In this document: in pieces, positions 5,247 through 15,490 of the stretch | Layout of the letters: every line of letters begins with the position of its first letter | How positions within the stretch are numbered: the first letter of the stretch is position 1 | NCBI RefSeq assembly: GCF_014736495.1 | Contig: NZ_MDUX01000009.1 | Location: forward strand, 1 to 32,000 | Source: Candidatus Dactylopiibacterium carminicum | GTDB taxonomy: Bacteria > Pseudomonadota > Gammaproteobacteria > Burkholderiales > Rhodocyclaceae | Direction of reading: 5' to 3' | Length of the DNA stretch: 32,000 bases | Notes under the pieces: model-generated | Databases searched by the model: none | Told to the model about the DNA's origin: nothing | The model's input: the letters and a program-made list of their open reading frames with translations, nothing else | Translations under genes and position numbers: made by a program

Positions 5247-5792
5247 ATGCCCCGCTATCGCCGTTCACTCACACCTGGCGCAACTTTCTTTTTCACTGTG
5301 GTGACCCACCGCCGCCAACGGATTCTGACGGACGAGCCCGTGCGCATCGCCCTACGCGAGGCCATCGGCCATGCGCGCACACGCCTGCCGTTTCACATCG
5401 ATGCCTGGGTGCTGCTGCCGGATCATCTGCACTGCATCTGGACGCTGCCGCCCGGCGATGCTGCTTTCGGCCACCGATGGGGCTGGATCAAACGTCGGGT
5501 GACACATGCATTGGCGGCACGATACGAGCGCGCGGAATGGCGCAATGCTTCCCGCATCGCACGGCGGGAATCCACGATCTGGCAACGCCGCTTCTGGGAG
5601 CACCAGATCCGTGATGATGCGGATTACGCCGCGCACATGGATTACCTGCATTTCAACCCTGTGAAGCATGGCCACGCCAAACGGGTGGCGGACTGGCCTT
5701 ACTCGACCTTTCACCGCCTGGTCCTCAAAGGCGAGTACCCGGCGGACTGGGGCGGCGGCACGGATGTGGCCTTGTTCAGCGGGGATGATTGA
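5247..5792 (+). CDS. REP-associated tyrosine transposase (RAYT, IS200/IS605-like Y1 HUH transposase)
   Basis: Starts at ATG 5247 (MPRYRRSL..). HUH motif [10 protein letters not shown] and catalytic Tyr block [14 protein letters not shown] elements lie on both sides. Confidence 0.88.
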
Positions 5793-10028: not shown

Positions 10029-11178
10029 GCATTCTAGATTCTATGTACAAGTACAAGGAAATTTTATGTCTGGGTGCGAGGTTGTCCGATGAGTGTGGGG
10101 TCAAAAGGAGTCTCGGAGTTCCACACGGCGAACGCGACGCGCAGGATCTTCCTCGCGATGATGCAGTAGATAGCGGTGCGTGGCAGTCCCCTGCTCAGCA
10201 AAGCGTCACGCATGGTACGCCAAGGCGTATTGCGGCAAGCACTGATTGCCGCCATGTATAGCAACCGCCGTTCTTCCGGATTGCCACGCTTCGATAGCTG
10301 CCGGGTGCCGACATATCTACCTGACTCCCGAGGTCGAGGGTCGAGCCCCACGGCAGCCACCAGCGCATCACTGTTCGCATAGTGGATGCGGCTCATGCGT
10401 AAGGCCAGAGTTGTGCTAACCAAGGGTCCCACACCGTGAATCCCCATCAGAAGCTTGCATTTGCGCTGCATGACGGCATCAGCAGCCATCAGATCCTGTA
10501 AGCGTTGATCGATCTGAGCAATCAGCGCTTCAAAGGCCTTCATGAGCGTAGAAAGCGCTGATAGACATGATGCGTCACCTTGAGAGAAGCTCATGGACAG
10601 ACTGGCACGCTGCTTGACGACCTGATGTCTCCGCTGGATCAACGTCGTAAGCGCAAGGTGATCTTCACTCAAGGGTGCATAAGGATGGCACTGAGCGGAT
10701 TCATTGTGCGTGTAACGTGCAATGCCAGCGGCATCAAAAAGGTCGGTTTTGCCTCGCACCCTCAGGCTCTTGAGATAAAACGCAACATCCTTGGGGTTGA
10801 ACACATAAACCCGATGCCCTGCCGAAAAGGCCAGATCAGCCAAAGTTCGATGCAGCGTCCCCGTCGCTTCCATTCCCAATGTGCATTGCACCGGCAAATT
10901 CGCGAGCCAGCGCTTGATTGCAGCAGGTTTGTTCGGGATGCGAATGAGCGGCTGGATGTCATCAAAGGTAGCAATGACTAGTTCATCCATGCTGACATCG
11001 ATTCCGATAGACAGGGGCTGAGTATTCACGCGTGCGAATCCTTATGAATAAGTTGATACAGGTATCGTTTTTTGCGTGAGCTTGCAGCTATCGGCGGTCA
11101 TGCCATCCAGGCACGCCGCTGCATTCCTCATCGACGCTGACAAAAACGAAATGGGAGCATTTCTAGAATCGTCTGTCC
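10029..11178 (-). mobile_element. IS110-like unit (recombinase plus non-coding ends); limits inferred from direct copies of a TCTAGA core
   Basis: The core GCATTCTAGATTCTATGTAC (10029-10048) and GCATTTCTAGAATCGTCTGTCC (11157-11178) flank the gene in direct orientation, with the TCTAGA centres 1129 bp apart. The exact ends are not determinable by eye. Confidence 0.5.
10064..11029 (-). CDS. IS110-family (DEDD/Piv-like) transposase/recombinase
   Basis: N-terminal SIGIDVSMDELVIA (DEDD_Tnp_IS110-like). C-terminal Transposase_20-like block GIHGVGPLVSTTLA...VGLDPRPRESGRYVGTRQLSKRGNPEERRLLYMAA. GTG start, TAA stop. Confidence 0.9.
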   Translation of the reverse strand: MNTQPLSIGIDVSMDELVIATFDDIQPLIRIPNKPAAIKRWLANLPVQCTLGMEATGTLHRTLADLAFSAGHRVYVFNPKDVAFYLKSLRVRGKTDLFDAAGIARYTHNESAQCHPYAPLSEDHLALTTLIQRRHQVVKQRASLSMSFSQGDASCLSALSTLMKAFEALIAQIDQRLQDLMAADAVMQRKCKLLMGIHGVGPLVSTTLALRMSRIHYANSDALVAAVGLDPRPRESGRYVGTRQLSKRGNPEERRLLYMAAISACRNTPWRTMRDALLSRGLPRTAIYCIIARKILRVAFAVWNSETPFDPTLIGQPRTQT

Positions 11179-11197
11179 GTTGAAACGGCAGATAGCC
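11074..11197. repeat. Long direct repeat X-L (non-coding region 5' of the IS110 recombinase)
   Basis: Aligns with 17196-17328 at roughly 88 percent identity by eye. Long perfect blocks (for example GCACGCCGCTGCATTCCTCATCGACGCTGAC) are interrupted by short variable patches and one 9-nt indel. Confidence 0.9.
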
Positions 11198-11236
11198 CGA
11201 ACCGCCCTTGCCCTCGAAAATATCGCAACGTCACGT

Positions 11237-12355
11237 TTAAAGGCGGGGCTTGGCGGCCAAGCCACCAATGCCGAGCGCAGGCGCGGCAATGGCCAGGTCA
11301 CCACTGGTGACGACGTTGCCCGAGGTCACTGGCTGATTGCTGACGGGAAAGGGCTGTTGTGTGCCCTGCCCTTGATCCCAGGCGACGAAGTAGCCACGTT
11401 CGACGATGGATTCGCAGAGGTTCTGCGGCACATCGATCCGCGTGGCCTGCTGGCTGTAGCAGCGGCATCCCTTTGACTTGAGCGTGACGCAGGCAGCGGG
11501 ATACGGCGCAACGGTTGGCTTGGTCACGTCGTCGTAGATAGGCGCCGTATTGGGCAGGCCGGGAATGCGTGCCTGGTGCGCTTCGAGATACGCGAACGTC
11601 GTGAGCTTGCCCGTCACAGGGTTCTGGCCAGGTGTGGCCGGTGCGCCTGTGGCCTGGATGCTCGGGTTCTTGAACCGATCCACAGCCTGCTTTTCGTCCA
11701 TCCGTGGTGCCAGCCAGCGCCAGACACCGAAGATCAGGACAGCGAGCAGAGCCGGCATCAGAAACAGGAACAGCAGCCGCCACGGCATGCGCCCTTTGAC
11801 GACATGCAGCTCGGCGCTCTGGTAGAGGTCAAAGACGTTCTTCGGGTACGGAAATGGCGTCTTCTCGGAGTCATCACGGTTCTTGTCGCACTGCTCCTTG
11901 CACTTGTCCCAGGCATGCACCGTCGCGTAGTGCTTGCCGAAGGCGCGGACCATGTGGCGGTGCTTGGTCACCAGGCGCCGGATGTTGTTGTCGATCAGCA
12001 TCGGGTGTTGCGTGATCAAGAAGATGCTGTAGCCGCGGTGCCGGTGCTTCTCCATCTGCGCGACGTGATCGGGCACCTGTGAGCCTGTGCCGCGAGGCCG
12101 GAAGATGTCCTGCGCTTCGTCGATCACGATGATCGCGCCGACCGGCAGCTCGAACCACTTGCGCGGGTCTTCCATCTCGATCCAGCCAGGCACCTTGCAG
12201 CCCCGGATATTGTGGAAATAGACCTGCCGTTCGTACGGTTTGCCTTGCCTCTCGGCTTCCTTCCGTTCGGCTTCGGTGAGGTCCATAACGTGATTGATGG
12301 TGTAGAGCGTCTTTGACGCGCCAGGCAGGCCAGTGTGCAGATTCAGTGTGCTCAT
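11237..12355 (-). CDS. zot: Zot/pI-family phage assembly ATPase
   Basis: N-terminal Walker A HTGLPGASKTLYT, central TM segment LLFLFLMPALLAVLIFGVW, 372 aa. Last gene of the phage morphogenesis block. Confidence 0.88.
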   Translation of the reverse strand: MSTLNLHTGLPGASKTLYTINHVMDLTEAERKEAERQGKPYERQVYFHNIRGCKVPGWIEMEDPRKWFELPVGAIIVIDEAQDIFRPRGTGSQVPDHVAQMEKHRHRGYSIFLITQHPMLIDNNIRRLVTKHRHMVRAFGKHYATVHAWDKCKEQCDKNRDDSEKTPFPYPKNVFDLYQSAELHVVKGRMPWRLLFLFLMPALLAVLIFGVWRWLAPRMDEKQAVDRFKNPSIQATGAPATPGQNPVTGKLTTFAYLEAHQARIPGLPNTAPIYDDVTKPTVAPYPAACVTLKSKGCRCYSQQATRIDVPQNLCESIVERGYFVAWDQGQGTQQPFPVSNQPVTSGNVVTSGDLAIAAPALGIGGLAAKPRL

Positions 12356-12362
12356 CGCGGGC

Positions 12363-12719
12363 TCACTTGTTCAGTCGCTTGAGCGTGAAGGAGAGCGAGG
12401 AGAGCGAGGCGAACGCCATCCAGCCACTGATGAGGATGTTCAGCGCGTCGAACAGTCCGGCGTAGGCCGCAAACTGGATCATGACTGCGCCGAGACCTGC
12501 CGCGCTGCCACCGCCACTGCCGCCACCTGCGGACTGGACGTAGGCAACCATCTGCGTAAAGTCGGAGACGATGTAGCCGATGAGGATCTCGAAGCCCTTC
12601 ACCATCGTGAAGGTGAGGCCGAGACCGACCAGGATCATGCCGATCCGCTTCGAGAAGAATTGCGTGAGTCCGGCAACGATGCCGCCCACAAGCGATGCTG
12701 CGATTACCGGGAGTGCCAT
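12363..12719 (-). CDS. Small hydrophobic virion/assembly protein (DUF2523 / pVI-like position)
   Basis: 118 aa. Hydrophobic segments separated by a GGGSGGGS stretch. Lies directly upstream of zot, as in many inoviruses. Confidence 0.6.
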   Translation of the reverse strand: MALPVIAASLVGGIVAGLTQFFSKRIGMILVGLGLTFTMVKGFEILIGYIVSDFTQMVAYVQSAGGGSGGGSAAGLGAVMIQFAAYAGLFDALNILISGWMAFASLSSLSFTLKRLNK

Positions 12720-12720
12720 G

Positions 12721-13119
12721 TCATGCCCTTTCTGTAACGTTGCGACTATTGCCGGAAGGCGTCAGCGCAATTCCTCTGGAATCTTCGATTCCTGCCGGAA
12801 TTCTCCTGCCCCCTTCCTGACCGGTGTCCGTGTCTGTGTAGTACGTGTGAATCGTCGGCGGACGGAGCGCCAGGCGCCTGGCGCTCGCCGTGGTGAGGGC
12901 AGACCGGCAGGGCACTCGAAAAAAGGTGAACCTCTTTTTTTCGGTGTCCTGCACGTCCCCGTAAAGCCTGTCTTTCAATTCCTGATAAAGCGTCGGAATC
13001 GAAAGCCATTTACGGGGCGCCTGCGGCGTCTGCATGCGTTCCTGGACGGTTGTATGGTTCTGCTGCCAGGGTGAAGTGTTGTCTGGGCCTTGCTGGCCAG
13101 GCTGGCGGTTTTGGGTCAT
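12721..13119 (-). CDS. Hypothetical phage protein (orf132)
   Basis: Its start overlaps the pIII-like stop (ATGA at 13116-13119) and its stop abuts the next ATG. Third-position GC is moderately high by hand count. No family recognised. The region also holds strong DNA palindromes, so coding status is uncertain. Confidence 0.4.
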   Translation of the reverse strand: MTQNRQPGQQGPDNTSPWQQNHTTVQERMQTPQAPRKWLSIPTLYQELKDRLYGDVQDTEKKRFTFFRVPCRSALTTASARRLALRPPTIHTYYTDTDTGQEGGRRIPAGIEDSRGIALTPSGNSRNVTERA

Positions 13120-14657
13120 GTCGGCACCGTCCGCGACAGCAGATGGACCACGCCGATGTAGGCAATGATGTGCATGATCAGCCGCAGGAACTTGCCCAGT
13201 TCGCAGAGGATGGAGAGGTCGAACTTGTACTCACGGCCCTTGTAGGTGAAGCCTTTCTCCGCGATGCAGCTGCCGGAGAAGGTGAGGTAGTCCTTCCGCT
13301 TCTCCTGGAAGGTGGCCCATATATCGAGATCGCCGGAGCCATCCTTGTTGAGCGCAGCATCGATCTCGGCCTGAGTCGGCAGGTTCTGCGAGGTCTCGTC
13401 GTGAATCGCGCTCAGGTCGTTGGCTTCTTCGGCCCAGGCCCACTGGCATCTGATCTGCCAGAGCTGTGTCGCCTGGGCGCACTGGACGGCATCACCGTCA
13501 CAGCTCGGCGCGGTCTGGCAGTAGGTGCCAGTGAAGCTGCCGTTCTTGCAGATCGAGAGCTGCGGCATCTGCTGGCAGAGGTTGAGCTGCTCGGAGTCGC
13601 CACGGCTGGCCCCAGTCGTGGTGGTACTGGTGCTGGAACCATCACTGCCAGTTGTGGTGGTGGTCGTGGTGCAGCTGCCGCCGCTGCAGGTGGTTTCCTG
13701 CGTTGTCGTGCCACCGCCGACGGAGTTGCCGTTGGAGTCCGTCGTGTTGCTGCCTGATCCGGTGTTGAACTCGACAGGGTCCGTGCTCTGTTCGGGAGGA
13801 ACGCAGACCACAGATCCGTTGACGGTGCCGTAGCCCTGCCCGGCTTCCAGGCATTTACAGATCTCGCAGCTCGGCAGACTGGAGCCGCTGCCACTGGATG
13901 ATCCGCTCGAAGAACTGGAGCCACTCGAGCTAGAGCTTCCGGAGCCAGAACTGGAACCGCTTGAAGAGCTAGAGCCACCGGAATCACCACCATTGAGATT
14001 GCCGGGAATCGGCGTTTCAGCGCCACCGCTGGAAGAGCCTTGTGGGCACGTGATCGACGATTCGGAAACCGTGCAGTATTCCAGGGCCGCGCCGGCGGAA
14101 TTGACGACGCTTTTACCAGTCGTGCCCTGGCATGAGATTTTGGTCAGCAGGCAACCATTCGAGCAGAGGTAATAGTCGTTCGTGTCGCCGACGGTGCCAG
14201 AGCCGAATCGGTTGGCGGTTTTAGCGCCCTTCGGAAACCAGCCGCGAGAGGTGGCGTTGCTGACGGGGCAGGATTGTTGTGAGGACGAAGAGGAGGATGC
14301 CGCACCGCAGGACCACGCGCCCCACTGATTAGGGCCAACTGGAACCTGCCCATCAGCGCAAGACAACACAGAAAAAAGATTACCGCCAGCGCCAGCGCAC
14401 GTAAAAGAAGAATCGCGATACGTGTCCGTGTATTTTTTATTTATTGAGCCACACGAACGGCCATACATGCTCTGACAAGCAGACTGACATGCCTGTTGCG
14501 CGTCGATAGTCCAAACAGCATTTTTACCAGAACCGCCAGAGCCATTAAGCCATTCAACTGCATTTGCAGGAGAGAAGAAAAATAAAATTATCAGGGCGCA
14601 AACAATATCCAGCCAGCGCCGAGCATTGCGATTAGCAGCCACAGTCCCATTTTTCAT
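13116..14657 (-). CDS. pIII-like minor coat / host-attachment protein
   Basis: 513 aa. N-terminal signal/anchor LDIVCALIILFFFSPANA and Cys-rich domains. Ser/Gly linker (DNA 13880-13992), Thr-rich linker (about 13612-13672) and C-terminal hydrophobic anchor LRLIMHIIAYIGVVHLL. Lies immediately after the major coat gene. Confidence 0.75.
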   Translation of the reverse strand: MKNGTVAANRNARRWLDIVCALIILFFFSPANAVEWLNGSGGSGKNAVWTIDAQQACQSACQSMYGRSCGSINKKYTDTYRDSSFTCAGAGGNLFSVLSCADGQVPVGPNQWGAWSCGAASSSSSSQQSCPVSNATSRGWFPKGAKTANRFGSGTVGDTNDYYLCSNGCLLTKISCQGTTGKSVVNSAGAALEYCTVSESSITCPQGSSSGGAETPIPGNLNGGDSGGSSSSSGSSSGSGSSSSSGSSSSSGSSSGSGSSLPSCEICKCLEAGQGYGTVNGSVVCVPPEQSTDPVEFNTGSGSNTTDSNGNSVGGGTTTQETTCSGGSCTTTTTTTGSDGSSTSTTTTGASRGDSEQLNLCQQMPQLSICKNGSFTGTYCQTAPSCDGDAVQCAQATQLWQIRCQWAWAEEANDLSAIHDETSQNLPTQAEIDAALNKDGSGDLDIWATFQEKRKDYLTFSGSCIAEKGFTYKGREYKFDLSILCELGKFLRLIMHIIAYIGVVHLLSRTVPT

Positions 14658-14672
14658 TCCCCCGCCCCCGTT

Positions 14673-14699
14673 AAATAAAAAGGGAGGCCGAAGCCTCCC
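14673..14699 (-). terminator. Rho-independent terminator between the major coat and pIII-like genes
   Basis: The minus strand reads GGGAGGC-ttcg-GCCTCCC followed by TTTTTATTT. Ff phages have a terminator at the same position, after gene VIII. Confidence 0.8.
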
Positions 14700-14724
14700 C
14701 CGGCCTTTTTTAAATCACCGCGAT

Positions 14725-14922
14725 TTACATCGCGCGGCGAACCCACTTGTAGGCCTTGATGGCGACCGCAACGAGCAGCACGGCGCCACCGATGAGACCG
14801 ATCGGCGTCAAGGTGCCGTCGATCTCATCAACCACTGCGGACACATCGATGGCGGCTTGTGCACCGGTCGTGAGAGCCAGCGAGAACACGCCAGCCACAA
14901 CTGCGAGGATTTGCTTCTTCAT
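14725..14922 (-). CDS. Major coat protein (pVIII-like)
   Basis: 65 aa. Signal peptide MKKQILAVVAGVFSLALTTGAQA. The mature part has an acidic N-terminus (DVSAVVDEID), a hydrophobic core and a basic C-terminus KAYKWVRRAM. Confidence 0.85.
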   Translation of the reverse strand: MKKQILAVVAGVFSLALTTGAQAAIDVSAVVDEIDGTLTPIGLIGGAVLLVAVAIKAYKWVRRAM

Positions 14923-15158
14923 GCTTCAGGCTCCTTGTCTGGAGAGTTGAGAAAATTAGCGAGGGTGCGAAGCCCCCACGCCGCGCCCCAAACCAGCCAG
15001 ATCACACCGCCGATCTGTGCTGCTTCAGAGATGGAGAGGTTCCACGGGCTGTTGGCCATGCTGACGGCTTCCGCGCCCGTGAAAACCACATAGGGACACT
15101 CCGCAACGCTCGCGGGCTCGCTTTGAATCGCCTGGAGGTCAGCGGAGAGGCAGAGCAT
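14919..15158 (-). CDS. Small phage membrane protein (pVII/pIX position)
   Basis: 79 aa. Hydrophobic segment IGGVIWLVWGAAWGL. Overlapping start/stop codons with both neighbours. Confidence 0.55.
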   Translation of the reverse strand: MLCLSADLQAIQSEPASVAECPYVVFTGAEAVSMANSPWNLSISEAAQIGGVIWLVWGAAWGLRTLANFLNSPDKEPEA

Positions 15159-15490
15159 CAGGCGGCAGCCTTGTTCTGTGCCGGATGCGGTTGGCCGGGC
15201 ACCGGCTTGATCGGAACAATCTCGACCACGGTGATCTTCTGGTCACGCTTGCCGGTCACCAGCTCGAAATGCACCTCGGCCGAAATCGGGAATTGCATCT
15301 CCATCAGGTTCTTGACGATCTGCGAGGAAGCGCAGCGGTATTCGACGGTGCGCCAGCCTTTAGAGGTGCCACGGCTTTCGTCCAGCGGCTCTTCGATCCA
15401 GATGGCGCCGGAATCCATCTGCTTGCCGTCGATCTCGCCTGTAAAGAAGTTGGCGCCCTTGATGATGTCATTACGCTTGAAGCCACTCAT
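15158..15490 (-). CDS. Putative ssDNA-binding protein (pV position)
   Basis: 110 aa. Its start ATG overlaps the Rep stop (ATGA). Assigned from size and position after Rep only; no motif recognised. Confidence 0.5.
   Translation of the reverse strand: MSGFKRNDIIKGANFFTGEIDGKQMDSGAIWIEEPLDESRGTSKGWRTVEYRCASSQIVKNLMEMQFPISAEVHFELVTGKRDQKITVVEIVPIKPVPGQPHPAQNKAAA

What the first reader, a model, noticed from the sequence alone, without database searches (positions are those of the whole stretch)
11030..11197. Candidate bridge (guide) RNA region 5' of the IS110 recombinase, present in two diverged copies
**Established knowledge**
- IS110-family recombinases are guided by a structured non-coding bridge RNA.
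- That RNA is encoded in the non-coding end next to the recombinase gene. Conserved scaffold stems alternate with programmable loops.

**Seen in the sequence**
- The roughly 170 nt between the recombinase GTG (11029) and the end of X-L has no credible ORF.
- The second copy (17196-17328) keeps long perfect blocks of 31, 16 and 12 nt. The substitutions cluster in five short patches, with one indel.
- X-L contains an imperfect hairpin at 11085-11121: CAGC/GCTG, GGCG/CGCC and TGCC/GGCA around the loop ATCCA.
- In X-R the apical stem change gives a C-A mismatch in plus-sense RNA but a G-U wobble in minus-sense RNA. That is the sense of the recombinase gene.
- The 5' variable patch (GCTATC in X-L, TATCT in X-R) is complementary to the conserved distal GCAGATAGCC in both copies.

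**Inference**
- This is a bridge-RNA-like element, and X-R may be a second guide with altered specificity.
- The evidence is thin: a single covariation-like event.
Basis: partly seen in the sequence, partly recalled or inferred. Interest (0 to 1): 0.8.

Follow-up and report, generated by a model that had tools for sequence, protein, structure and literature searches.

The report
Bridge RNA genes flanking filamentous prophage
The flagged stretch is a real guide ("bridge") RNA gene of an IS110-type RNA-guided recombinase, a kind of element known since 2024. The unusual part is that a second, more complete copy lies 6 kb away, with a filamentous prophage sitting between the two.

Summary

**Identity of the two copies**
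- A covariance model built only from 43 homologous loci, with no window sequence, finds exactly two strong full-length matches in the window.
- Both are on the recombinase strand: X-L at 11052-11217 (108 bits) and X-R at 17174-17350 (117 bits).

**Family-level evidence**
- The same RNA lies upstream of the recombinase gene in about 80 related loci.
- 83% of pair cells are paired and 29 of 35 pairs show compensatory changes.
- The two internal loops match the flanks. The left target guide equals the left flank and the right target guide complements CT plus 5 nt of right flank (both 0 of 10000 permutations).
- The left donor guide co-varies with the right-end terminus. This is the IS621 architecture.

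- The TCTAGA motifs at 11162 and 17284 are right-target guides, not element ends.
- The true termini are the CT cores at 10036-10037 (right end) and 17392-17393 (left end, next to X-R).
- X-R is the complete copy. X-L lacks the first ~67 nt.

**What lies between**
- Positions 11237-17171 hold an inovirus prophage (Zot, coat, Rep).
- The locus is therefore an expanded IS110 locus, or a filamentous prophage with an IS110-type integration module.
- Whether the 7.36-kb unit moves as one piece is unproven.

The parts
11052..11217 (-). X-L: bridge-RNA core (target-binding loop plus donor-binding loop) directly upstream of the recombinase gene. It lacks the left-end start and the 5' stem-loop.
   Evidence: Model R1 gives 108.2 bits, E 6e-21, full length 1-170. 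Homology to other left ends stops at about 11216-11220.
11194..11202 (-). X-L left target guide, GUUCGGGCU
   Evidence: Position in the R1 alignment. It matches the left flank at X-R in 6 of 9 positions.
11163..11169 (-). X-L right target guide, AUUCUAG.
   Evidence: Its reverse complement CTAGAAT equals core plus right flank at 10031-10037, 7 of 7.
11123..11127 (-). X-L left donor guide, GGAAU
   Evidence: It matches the right-end terminus AGAAT before the CT core. Family covariation holds in 30-31 of 33 loop/terminus combinations.
11081..11084 (-). X-L right donor guide, CAAG
   Evidence: It is complementary to CTTG (core plus left-end start). It is invariant in the family.
11094..11119 (-). 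Distal stem and apical hairpin of the donor-binding loop.
   Evidence: Helix P5 is 94% paired with compensatory changes. X-L and X-R share almost the same apical hairpin.
10064..11029 (-). IS110-family recombinase (321 aa, GTG start). The family-invariant DEDD residues and the serine are present.
   Evidence: Pfam PF01548 plus PF02371. IS621 recombinase 8wt6, E 1.5e-25. Invariant columns D11, E54, D96, D99, S246.
10036..10063 (-). Right end. CATAGAAT is at 10038-10045, the CT core at 10036-10037, and the right-target flank AGAAT at 10031-10035.
   Evidence: It aligns with the ...ACATAGAATCT| right ends of L002, L006 and about 70 other loci.
17174..17391 (-). X-R: complete bridge-RNA gene. [quoted passage not shown] No recombinase gene is adjacent.
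   Evidence: R1 gives 117 bits, E 1e-22. It is homologous to L002 left-end positions 20-242. MFE -75.2 kcal/mol, z -2.27.
17392..17400 (-). Left target flank ATACAGG (17394-17400) plus CT core (17392-17393)
   Evidence: It is identical, 9 of 9, to the X-R left target guide at 17325-17333.
17325..17333 (-). X-R left target guide, AUACAGGCU
17285..17291 (-). X-R right target guide, UCUCUAG.
   Evidence: It predicts the right target CTAGAGA. That matches 10031-10037 in 5 of 7 positions.
11237..17171 (-). Filamentous (inovirus) prophage between X-L and X-R.
- Zot at 11237-12355
- DUF2523 at 12363-12719
- major coat protein (Phage_Coat_B)
- Rep_trans at 15856-16527
- DUF2726 on the + strand, ending at 17171
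   Evidence: Pfam hits. Gene calls in two other assemblies.

Best explanation
**What the two copies are**
- X-L (11052-11217) and X-R (17174-17391) are sister copies of the bridge-RNA gene of an IS621-like element of the IS110 group. Both are read on the minus strand, the strand of the recombinase gene at 10064-11029.
- Each encodes a target-binding loop. Its scaffold is GGGAC - left target guide - AUCUG hairpin CAGAC - right target guide - GUCCC.
- Each also encodes a donor-binding loop. Its scaffold is GCGU - left donor guide - hairpin - right donor guide - ACGC.

**How the guides pair**
[quoted passage not shown] - The left donor guide GGAAU pairs with the right-end terminus ...AGAAT.
- The right donor guide CAAG pairs with CT plus TG of the left-end start.
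- By homology to IS621, a tetramer of the DEDD/serine recombinase then exchanges strands at the CT core.

**Where the element ends**
- The true termini are the right end at 10036-10045 and the left-end start at 17386-17393.
- These termini enclose a 7.36-kb unit. In recombinase-sense order it reads: left end with complete bridge RNA (X-R), inovirus prophage, 5'-truncated bridge RNA (X-L), recombinase, right end.

**Shown**
- Family membership, conserved structure, guide-flank complementarity and the termini.

**Inferred**
- Transcription of either copy.
- Activity of either copy. X-L is probably co-transcribed with the prophage operon ending in zot.
- A weak hybrid promoter (TTGTAC, 17 nt, TATGTT) forming at a right-end/left-end circle junction.
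- Movement of the whole 7.36 kb as one piece.
For: **Independent model**
- Model R1 was built from 43 homologues without any window sequence.
- It hits only X-R and X-L in 32 kb, both on the minus strand and both full length.
- It hits upstream of the recombinase gene in about 80 loci.

**Structure**
- On the model alignment, 83.3% of cells are paired against 36-44% for slid controls.
- 29 of 35 pairs carry changes on both sides.
- 273 compensatory cells are seen against 81 in shuffles (0 of 500).
- The unfitted MAFFT alignment already gives 80% against about 41%.

**Guides against flanks**
- Right side: own flank scores 3.47 of 5 against 1.59 for other loci. 19 of 64 are perfect; 0 of 10000 permutations reach this.
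- Left side: own flank scores 6.22 of 7 against 3.65. 26 of 46 are perfect; 0 of 10000 permutations reach this.
- Distant relatives with quite different guides also match their own flanks.
- The left donor guide and the right-end terminus co-vary in 30-31 of 33 combinations.

**In the window itself**
- X-R left target guide equals the left flank, 9 of 9.
- X-L right target guide complements the right flank, 7 of 7.
- X-L and X-R keep helix P3 through two compensatory changes: CGUUUUU/AAAAACG against CGUUUGC/GUAAAC.

**Agreement with IS621**
- The recombinase is homologous to IS621 and ISCro4, E 1e-25 and 1e-23.
- IS621 in E. coli has the same junction logic...ATCAGGCCT|TGTAT... and ...ACAGTATCT|ACGCA.
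- The guide definitions used here are those of PMC11208160.

**Prophage**
- Pfam Zot, DUF2523, Rep_trans and Phage_Coat_B.
Against: **No direct evidence of function**
- There is no expression or activity data.
- Rfam has no model, so no published model could be applied.
- Only one recombinase copy and one genomic context are on record. Mobility of this element is therefore not demonstrated.

**Signs of decay**
- X-L has lost the 5' stem-loop.
- X-L has lost the long-range helix P0. That helix is only 66% paired family-wide, and RNAalifold prefers another partner for its 5' strand.
- X-L has a weakened stem at the base of its target-binding loop.
- The prophage Rep ORF looks truncated, so the unit may be decaying.

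**Imperfect fit to the present site**
- Neither target-binding loop matches both flanks perfectly. X-R scores 9/9 and 5/7; X-L scores 6/9 and 7/7.

**The phage link is not conserved**
- Relatives of the phage (Zot 67% and 48% identical) carry no IS110 gene.

**Weak promoter**
- The proposed hybrid promoter matches the sigma-70 consensus at only 7 of 12 positions.
Confidence: 0.85

Rival explanations
1. Fossil reading. Both copies derive from bridge-RNA genes, but nothing works any more. X-R would be a solo left end left behind by deletion of its recombinase gene. X-L would be a truncated left end. The prophage and the insertion sequence would simply be decaying side by side.
For: - X-L lacks its first ~67 nt and helix P0.
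- X-R lacks the last ~25 nt of the left end and has no recombinase gene.
- Rep_trans is 223 aa against 369 aa in a homologue, and only residues 37-258 of that homologue align.
- There is one copy in one context, identical in three assemblies.
- A close recombinase homologue (L003) also lacks any bridge RNA.
Against: - The recombinase ORF is full length with all family-invariant residues.
- X-R keeps every helix and both termini are intact.
- The two copies differ by compensatory changes in P3 and mostly in guide loops, which suggests selection at the RNA level after they diverged.
- In IS621, deleting the 5' stem-loop only slightly reduces activity (PMC11208158).
Confidence: 0.3
2. Two-event origin rather than one unit. 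Two sister insertion-sequence copies would have inserted separately at neighbouring targets, one at ATACAGG-CT-... and one at ...-CT-AGAAT. Phage DNA would later have replaced the segment from the end of the first left end to position ~68 of the second left end. On this reading the 7.36 kb was never inserted as one piece.
For: - Each retained flank matches the guide of its nearest copy perfectly: X-R left target guide 9/9 and X-L right target guide 7/7. The cross-combinations score 6/9 and 5/7.
- Tandem or abutting copies occur in this family, with the right end directly followed by a left-end start in L050 and L053.
- Phage relatives lack IS110 genes.
Against: - It needs two illegitimate junctions.
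- Mismatches in the distal right-target positions are common in the family: 1-3 of 5 in most members that target palindromic repeats. A single insertion guided by X-R at 12 of 14 positions is therefore also plausible.
- Filamentous phages carrying IS110-family transposases at one prophage end are known (PMC11437467).
Confidence: 0.35
3. The insertion sequence would run from the TCTAGA at 10034 to the TCTAGA at 11167. X-L would be its whole left end and X-R a second end sharing the same TCTAGA core.
For: TCTAGA occurs at all three places.
Against: - Homology of X-L and X-R to the left ends of other elements continues well beyond TCTAGA. In X-R it reaches 17391.
- In relatives the motif is NNNGTAGA and varies with the right flank, which is how a guide behaves.
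- Left ends in the family start with TGTATG after a CT core.
Confidence: 0.02
4. Not a guide RNA at all. The sequence would be a host repeat of the extragenic palindromic type, a terminator, or a cis-acting leader that regulates translation of the recombinase.
For: - A single-sequence fold of X-L is not exceptional (z -1.05).
- There is no Rfam hit.
Against: - The sequence family is found specifically upstream of IS110 recombinase genes in about 80 unrelated contigs.
- A leader or a host repeat would not have loops that track the flanking DNA on both sides and the element's own ends.
- The Rfam negative is uninformative.
Confidence: 0.03

Closest known systems
IS621 / IS622 bridge RNA and bridge recombinase (IS110 group; Durrant et al. 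2024, PMC11208160; Hiraizumi et al. 2024, PMC11208158)
   Same: - The RNA is encoded in the left end, upstream of and on the same strand as a DEDD/serine recombinase.
- The order is 5' stem-loop, target-binding loop, donor-binding loop.
- The left target guide has the same sense as the left flank. The right target guide is complementary to CT plus the right flank.
- The core is CT and the left end starts TGTAT.
- The target resembles a palindromic repeat: family consensus ATCCGGG-CT-AC against IS621 ATCAGGC-CT-AC.
- The -35/-10 halves sit at equivalent positions across the right-end/left-end junction.
   Different: - The recombinase match to IS621 is only E 1.5e-25 over residues 41-312.
- The scaffold sequence is unrelated. 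R1 does not hit the IS621 left end.
- Extra helices are present: P3 extends the donor-loop base, and a possible long-range P0 exists.
- In this subclade the left donor guide pairs with only 4-5 nt and is followed by GC where the core would pair.
- Here there are two diverged copies with a prophage between them.
Expanded, cargo-bearing IS110 loci (Hu et al. 2026, bioRxiv 10.64898/2026.08.14.744561)
   Same: - Cargo of several kb lies inside authentic IS110 termini.
- Non-coding (bridge-RNA) units are partly duplicated next to the recombinase gene.
- Guides match the outer flanks.
   Different: - That study reports mostly plasmid-derived and resistance cargo and does not mention inoviruses.
- Here the cargo is a near-complete filamentous prophage lying between a complete and a truncated bridge-RNA copy.
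- No donor half-match was seen at the internal boundaries.
Filamentous phages carrying an IS110-family transposase: Neisseria Nf/MDA, Thermus phiOH16/Zuza8/Zuza27, human-gut 'Inovirus D_HF' genomes
   Same: An inovirus gene set with an IS110-family transposase at one end of the prophage, thought to mediate integration and excision (PMC11437467).
   Different: - Those transposases are only 24-29% identical to this one.
- No paper in the held library links them to bridge RNAs.
- The closest relatives of this prophage lack the transposase, so the association here looks recent rather than characteristic of the lineage.
ISPpu9/ssr9 modular IS110 elements of Pseudomonas putida (PMC12288879)
   Same: Non-coding RNA modules of an IS110 element that also occur on their own, away from a transposase gene, in targets of the extragenic palindromic repeat type (abstract).
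   Different: - ssr9 lies downstream of the transposase gene and is not needed for transposition.
- X-R is a left-end bridge RNA carrying target and donor guides.

Membership tests
IS110-group bridge RNA | Non-coding RNA gene in the left end, upstream of and co-oriented with a DEDD_Tnp_IS110/Transposase_20 recombinase gene | tested here: met
   - X-L ends 22 nt upstream of the GTG start of the recombinase gene, on the same strand.
- About 80 homologous loci have the same arrangement.
- X-R has the same sequence but no adjacent recombinase gene.
IS110-group bridge RNA | Conserved secondary structure with two internal loops, supported by covariation | tested here: met
   - 83% paired against about 40% for slid controls.
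- 29 of 35 pairs have compensatory changes; 0 of 500 shuffles reach the observed value.
- The unfitted alignment gives 80% against 41%.
IS110-group bridge RNA | Target-binding loop: left target guide matches the left flank plus core, and right target guide complements the core plus right flank | tested here: met
   - Family-wide permutation tests give 0 of 10000 on both sides.
- In the window, X-R left target guide 9/9 and X-L right target guide 7/7.
IS110-group bridge RNA | Donor-binding loop: left donor guide matches the right-end terminus, and right donor guide complements the core plus left-end start | tested here: met
   - The left donor guide and right-end terminus co-vary (GGAAT/AGAAT, GGGAT/AGGAT, GGAAA/AGAAA, GGAAC/AGAAC) in 30-31 of 33 combinations.
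- The right donor guide CAAG against CTTG is invariant, so it is consistent but gives no covariation.
IS110-group bridge RNA | Match to a published or curated bridge-RNA covariance model | not testable with these tools
   - Rfam 15 gives no hit.
- It also gives none on the canonical IS621 bridge RNA.
- The models of Durrant et al. are not available here.
IS110-group bridge RNA | The RNA is transcribed and directs recombination | not testable with these tools
   No RNA-seq data or assay. No sigma-70-like promoter passes the scan near either copy in the integrated state.
IS110-family bridge recombinase | RuvC-like DEDD domain plus Tnp domain with catalytic serine; homology to IS621 | tested here: met
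   - Pfam hits.
- 8wt6 at E 1.5e-25 and 9t56 at E 1.1e-23.
- Invariant D11, E54, D96, D99 and S246 in 33 homologues, including this protein.
Inovirus (filamentous) prophage | Zot/pI-like assembly ATPase, major coat protein, rolling-circle Rep and minor coat genes in one ~6-kb co-oriented block | tested here: met
   - Zot, DUF2523, Rep_trans and Phage_Coat_B.
- Rep may be truncated.
Expanded (cargo-bearing) IS110 element moving as one unit | Cargo enclosed by authentic left-end and right-end termini, with flanks matching one target-binding loop; a circle junction or a second genomic context | tested here: inconclusive
   - The termini are authentic.
- Flank matches are split between the two copies: 9/9 with 5/7, or 6/9 with 7/7.
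- No second context exists.
- Circle junctions cannot be tested here.

The most novel reading that the evidence does not exclude
The 7.36-kb segment 10036-17393 would be a single mobile unit: a filamentous phage that integrates and excises by RNA-guided bridge recombination.
- Its replicative circle would carry the right-end/CT/left-end donor junction.
- It would express the complete bridge RNA (X-R) from the junction promoter.
- It would express the recombinase, together with a second truncated bridge RNA (X-L) of different target specificity, from the phage late operon.
[quoted passage not shown] Two bridge RNAs could therefore broaden or switch the attachment sites of the phage.
Probability: 0.25. 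Interest if true: 0.7.

Novelty: new member of a known kind. Interest (0 to 1): 0.5.

Why it matters
**What this adds**
- Bridge RNAs are a recently discovered class (2024) with value for genome engineering. This work documents a well-populated subfamily of about 80 loci. Its scaffold sequence differs from IS621, but it has the same CT core and a similar class of palindromic-repeat target.
- The model built here fills a gap, because Rfam does not recognise even IS621.

**What is specific to this locus**
- It shows directly how a reader can mistake a guide for an element end. The right target guide is complementary to the right-end junction, and here it is palindromic.
- It is a concrete case in which a filamentous prophage sits inside IS110 termini, between two bridge-RNA copies with different guides.
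- If the unit is mobile, it would link the long-known IS110-type "integrases" of inoviruses to RNA-guided recombination. It would also give a natural two-guide system to test.

Tried and rejected
**Searches that found nothing useful**
- **Rfam.** No relevant hit with gathering thresholds or with E up to 10. A control on the canonical IS621 locus was also negative.
- **Genome-contig scan with the recombinase.** It returned only one distant relative.
- **Single-sequence folds of X-L and X-R.** z was only -1.05 and -1.57. RNAalifold on the MAFFT alignment recovered only part of the structure and preferred an alternative partner for the 5' strand of P0, so P0 is left uncertain.
- **IMG/VR scan for the target-binding-loop scaffold.** No hits.
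- **BLAST of X-R against the phage and plasmid collections.** No match.
- **Unoccupied target sites.** Neither predicted target occurs elsewhere in the window above chance.
- **Sigma-70 scans.** No convincing promoter for either copy in the integrated state.

**Ideas tested and dropped**
- **R1 on other loci.** It does not detect IS621, the related inoviruses L090 and L093, or the bridge-RNA-less relative L003.
- **IS110 as a lineage trait of this phage.** Contexts of Zot homologues show no IS110 gene.
- **TCTAGA as the core.** Rejected.
- **X-R as a miniature left-end-plus-right-end element.** An ATAGCCTCT|AC motif at 17100-17116 resembles a right end. It lies inside the region homologous to DUF2726, so it was judged coincidental.
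- **Donor half-matches at the internal phage/insertion-sequence boundaries.** None were seen by eye.
Full report
**1. The observation**

The window comes from Candidatus Dactylopiibacterium carminicum, because the recombinase is 100% identical to a protein of that organism. The minus-strand ORF at 10064-11029 carries the DEDD_Tnp_IS110 and Transposase_20 domains. The GTG at 11029 is the likely start. The family-conserved IGIDVS motif lies upstream of the ATG used in the public annotation, and homologues are about 320 aa long.

- The repeat is real.
- The hairpin, the C-A against G-U observation and the patch complementarity are all present in the sequence.
- Only short or antisense ORFs overlap the region.

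**2. Where the element really ends**

Two homologous copies from other genera are 81% identical to each other over 1256 nt and unrelated outside that stretch. They are L002 (Vogesella) and L006 (Uliginosibacterium). Together they define a ~1.25-kb element with a ~283-nt left end and a right end reading ...ACATAGAATCT|.

- Both X-L and X-R remain homologous to these left ends well beyond the TCTAGA motifs.
- X-R extends to a left-end start TGTATG at 17386-17391. A CT core precedes it at 17392-17393.
- X-L stops at about 11217 and so lacks the first ~67 nt.
- The right end of the window copy is CATAGAAT (10038-10045) followed by CT (10036-10037).

**3. A conserved, structured RNA**

A metagenome scan returned 80 related loci. 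The region upstream of the recombinase gene is alignable in the closer relatives (72-98% identity to the L002 left end in about 28 loci). The target-binding-loop scaffold is recognisable in 57 loci.

I aligned 43 bridge-RNA cores, leaving out the window sequences. [quoted passage not shown]

- On the plain MAFFT alignment, 80% of cells pair against about 41% when partners are slid.
- The covariance model R1 finds only two real matches in the 32-kb window. Both are on the minus strand and both are full length. X-R is at 17174-17350 (117 bits, E about 1e-22) and X-L at 11052-11217 (108 bits, E about 6e-21).
- R1 also hits once upstream of the recombinase gene in about 80 loci.
- On that alignment, 83.3% of cells pair against 36-44% when slid. 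29 of 35 pairs have changes on both sides. 273 compensatory cells are seen against 81 in shuffles, with 0 of 500 shuffles reaching the observed value.
- This alignment is fitted to the model, which inflates pairing somewhat. The unfitted result points the same way.
- P2, P4 and P5 are the best-supported helices (94-97% paired).
- P0 is weak (66%) and RNAalifold suggests a different partner for its 5' strand, so I treat P0 as uncertain.

**4. The loops are guides**

The test that separates a bridge RNA from any other structured leader is whether the loops follow the flanking DNA.

- **Left target guide.**
  - The 9 nt before AUCUG in the target-binding loop equal the 9 nt of left flank plus core.
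  - That flank lies at a fixed distance upstream and is followed by TGTATG.
  - Loop and flank change together: ATCCGACCT in L009, ACCCGGGCT in L015, ATCCAGGCT in L006 and ATACAGGCT in X-R.
- **Right target guide.**
  - Its reverse complement equals CT plus 5 nt of right flank.
  - This includes distant relatives with unrelated guides, such as CTCAGCA, CTTATGG, CTCCTCA, CTATTGG and CTGCCCC.
- **Statistics.**
  - Right side: own flank 3.47 of 5 identical against 1.59 for other loci, with 19 of 64 perfect.
  - Left side: 6.22 of 7 against 3.65, with 26 of 46 perfect.
  - In both cases 0 of 10000 permutations reach the observed sum.
- **Left donor guide.** The 5' side of the donor-binding loop follows the last bases of the right end. 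The pairs are GGAAT/AGAAT, GGGAT/AGGAT, GGAAA/AGAAA, GGAAC/AGAAC and AGAAC/AGAAC, agreeing in 30-31 of 33 combinations. In distant members the match includes the CT core.
- **Right donor guide.** The 3' side carries an invariant CAAG, complementary to CT plus TG of the left-end start.

This is the IS621 arrangement as its authors define it (PMC11208160). The canonical IS621 copy I fetched shows the same junction grammar...ATCAGGCCT|TGTAT... on the left and ...ACAGTATCT|ACGCA on the right. The recombinase is a moderately distant homologue of IS621 and ISCro4.

**5. The two window copies compared**

| Feature | X-R | X-L |
|---|---|---|
| Left-end start | present | absent |
| 5' stem-loop | present (GCGUCCU.../...AGGACGC, co-varying in the family) | absent |
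| Long-range helix P0 | present | lost |
| P1 (base of target-binding loop) | intact | 4-bp shifted version |
| P2, P3, P4, P5 and all four guides | present | present |
| Left target guide | AUACAGGCU | GUUCGGGCU |
| Predicted right target | CTAGAGA | CTAGAAT |

- The copies are sisters. They share an almost identical apical hairpin in a region that is hypervariable in the family, and they share the unusual CTAG right-target specificity (one search compared).
- Their differences fall in the guide loops, in hairpin loops and in P3.
- The left flank at 17392-17400 matches the X-R left target guide 9 of 9, against 6 of 9 for X-L.
- The right flank at 10031-10037 matches the X-L right target guide 7 of 7, against 5 of 7 for X-R.
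- In IS621, deleting the 5' stem-loop only slightly lowers activity. [quoted passage not shown] X-L could therefore still work, but that is inference.

**6. What lies between the copies**

Positions 11237-17171 encode Zot, DUF2523, a major coat protein, Rep_trans and further small proteins, all co-oriented with the recombinase gene. A DUF2726 gene lies on the other strand. This is a filamentous (inovirus) prophage. The same layout occurs in two other assemblies of the organism.

In recombinase-sense order the locus reads:
1. chemotaxis-receptor gene
2. ATACAGG-CT
3. left end with complete bridge RNA (X-R)
4. prophage
5. truncated bridge RNA (X-L)
6. recombinase
7. right end, then CT-AGAAT
8. 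DAHP-synthase gene

Both outer termini are authentic, so the 7.36 kb has the form of an expanded IS110 element.

- Such loci, with cargo and partial duplication of non-coding units, were described in a 2026 preprint, which does not mention inoviruses.
- Filamentous phages with IS110-family transposases at one prophage end are also known. Examples are Neisseria Nf, Thermus phiOH16 and the Zuza phages, and ten human-gut inovirus genomes in the phage collection.
- The closest relatives of this prophage (Zot 67% and 48% identical) have no IS110 gene, and one has a tyrosine integrase.
- Only one recombinase copy and one context are on record.
- Rep appears truncated.

Whether the unit ever moved as one piece is therefore open. 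The alternative is that two sister insertions and a phage came together through illegitimate events. The split pattern of perfect guide-flank matches slightly favours two events. The frequent distal right-target mismatches in the family mean that a single insertion guided by X-R (12 of 14 positions) is also plausible.

**7. Expression (inferred)**

No sigma-70-like site passes the scan near either copy in the integrated state. Joining the right end to the left-end start would place TTGTAC (right end) 17 nt from TATGTT (left end). L002 has the same geometry (TTGTGC, 17 nt, TATGTT), and so does IS621 (TTGCAG, 17 nt, TATTAT) (read). The match to consensus is weak at 7 of 12. X-L and the recombinase gene follow zot by 20 nt on the same strand. 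They are probably read through from the phage operon.

**8. Comparison and verdict**

The flagged region is a bridge-RNA gene, a known kind of element. It belongs to a subfamily whose scaffold neither Rfam nor my model relates to IS621. The locus-level architecture is the more interesting part, and it rests on inference.

I score interest at 0.5. The more novel reading is an inovirus that integrates by RNA-guided bridge recombination using two guides. I give it probability 0.25.

Noticed in passing
window 15491-16527: The prophage Rep_trans ORF is only 223 aa. A 369-aa homologue (L093) aligns over its residues 37-258, and that alignment runs past the ORF's stop codon. About 365 nt with no called gene follow. 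Rep may be truncated or frameshifted, so the prophage may be defective.
   Followed up: partly
window 17100-17116 (minus sense TGTATAGCCTCTACGTC): This motif looks like a right-end junction (ATAGCCT-CT-ACGTC) and is identical over 11 nt to the real right-end junction of L037. It lies inside the region homologous to DUF2726, about 60 nt from the inner end of X-R. I judged it coincidental, but it could be a donor-like half-site.
   Followed up: partly
window 10046-10057: There is a tandem duplication of CTTGTA (minus sense ...CCTTGTACTTGTACATAG...) just inside the right end. It lies where relatives have the -35-like TTGTGC. It also places the recombinase stop codon (10064-10066) 28 nt before the core, whereas in relatives the stop is the TAG inside CATAGAATCT.
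   Followed up: no
L096 (E. coli 20KM0223N, IS621 locus) 1480-1762: This IS621 copy carries a partial tandem duplication of the first ~85 nt of its left end. The second left-end start follows the CT inside the target-binding-loop hairpin (...GGGTTCTAAC-CT|TGTATTATCC...). It is a natural example of a partly duplicated bridge-RNA unit next to the recombinase gene.
   Followed up: no
L050 (1-162 and 1291-1467) and L053: In these metagenome contigs the right end is followed directly by a left-end start (CATAGAATCT|TGTATG), and a second bridge-RNA hit lies downstream of the recombinase gene. These are tandem copies or assembled circle junctions. They support the inferred donor junction.
   Followed up: partly
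L003, L004, L005: A recombinase 63% identical to the window protein has no bridge-RNA sequence upstream. Only the last ~45 nt before the start codon resemble the family left end, and R1 gives no hit. This is a recombinase-only copy that would need a bridge RNA supplied in trans.
   Followed up: partly
window about 5247-5792 (L087 14209-14754): A 181-aa gene here has a weak Y1_Tnp hit. It may be a tyrosine transposase of the kind associated with repetitive extragenic palindromes. HepT/MNT and other toxin-antitoxin pairs are nearby. This matters because the family's consensus target looks like such a palindromic repeat.
   Followed up: no
Rfam 15, tested on L096: Rfam release 15 returns no match for the canonical 177-nt IS621 bridge RNA. 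It gives only a weak naRNA4 hit on the downstream flank. Rfam-based screens therefore cannot detect this RNA class.
   Followed up: yes
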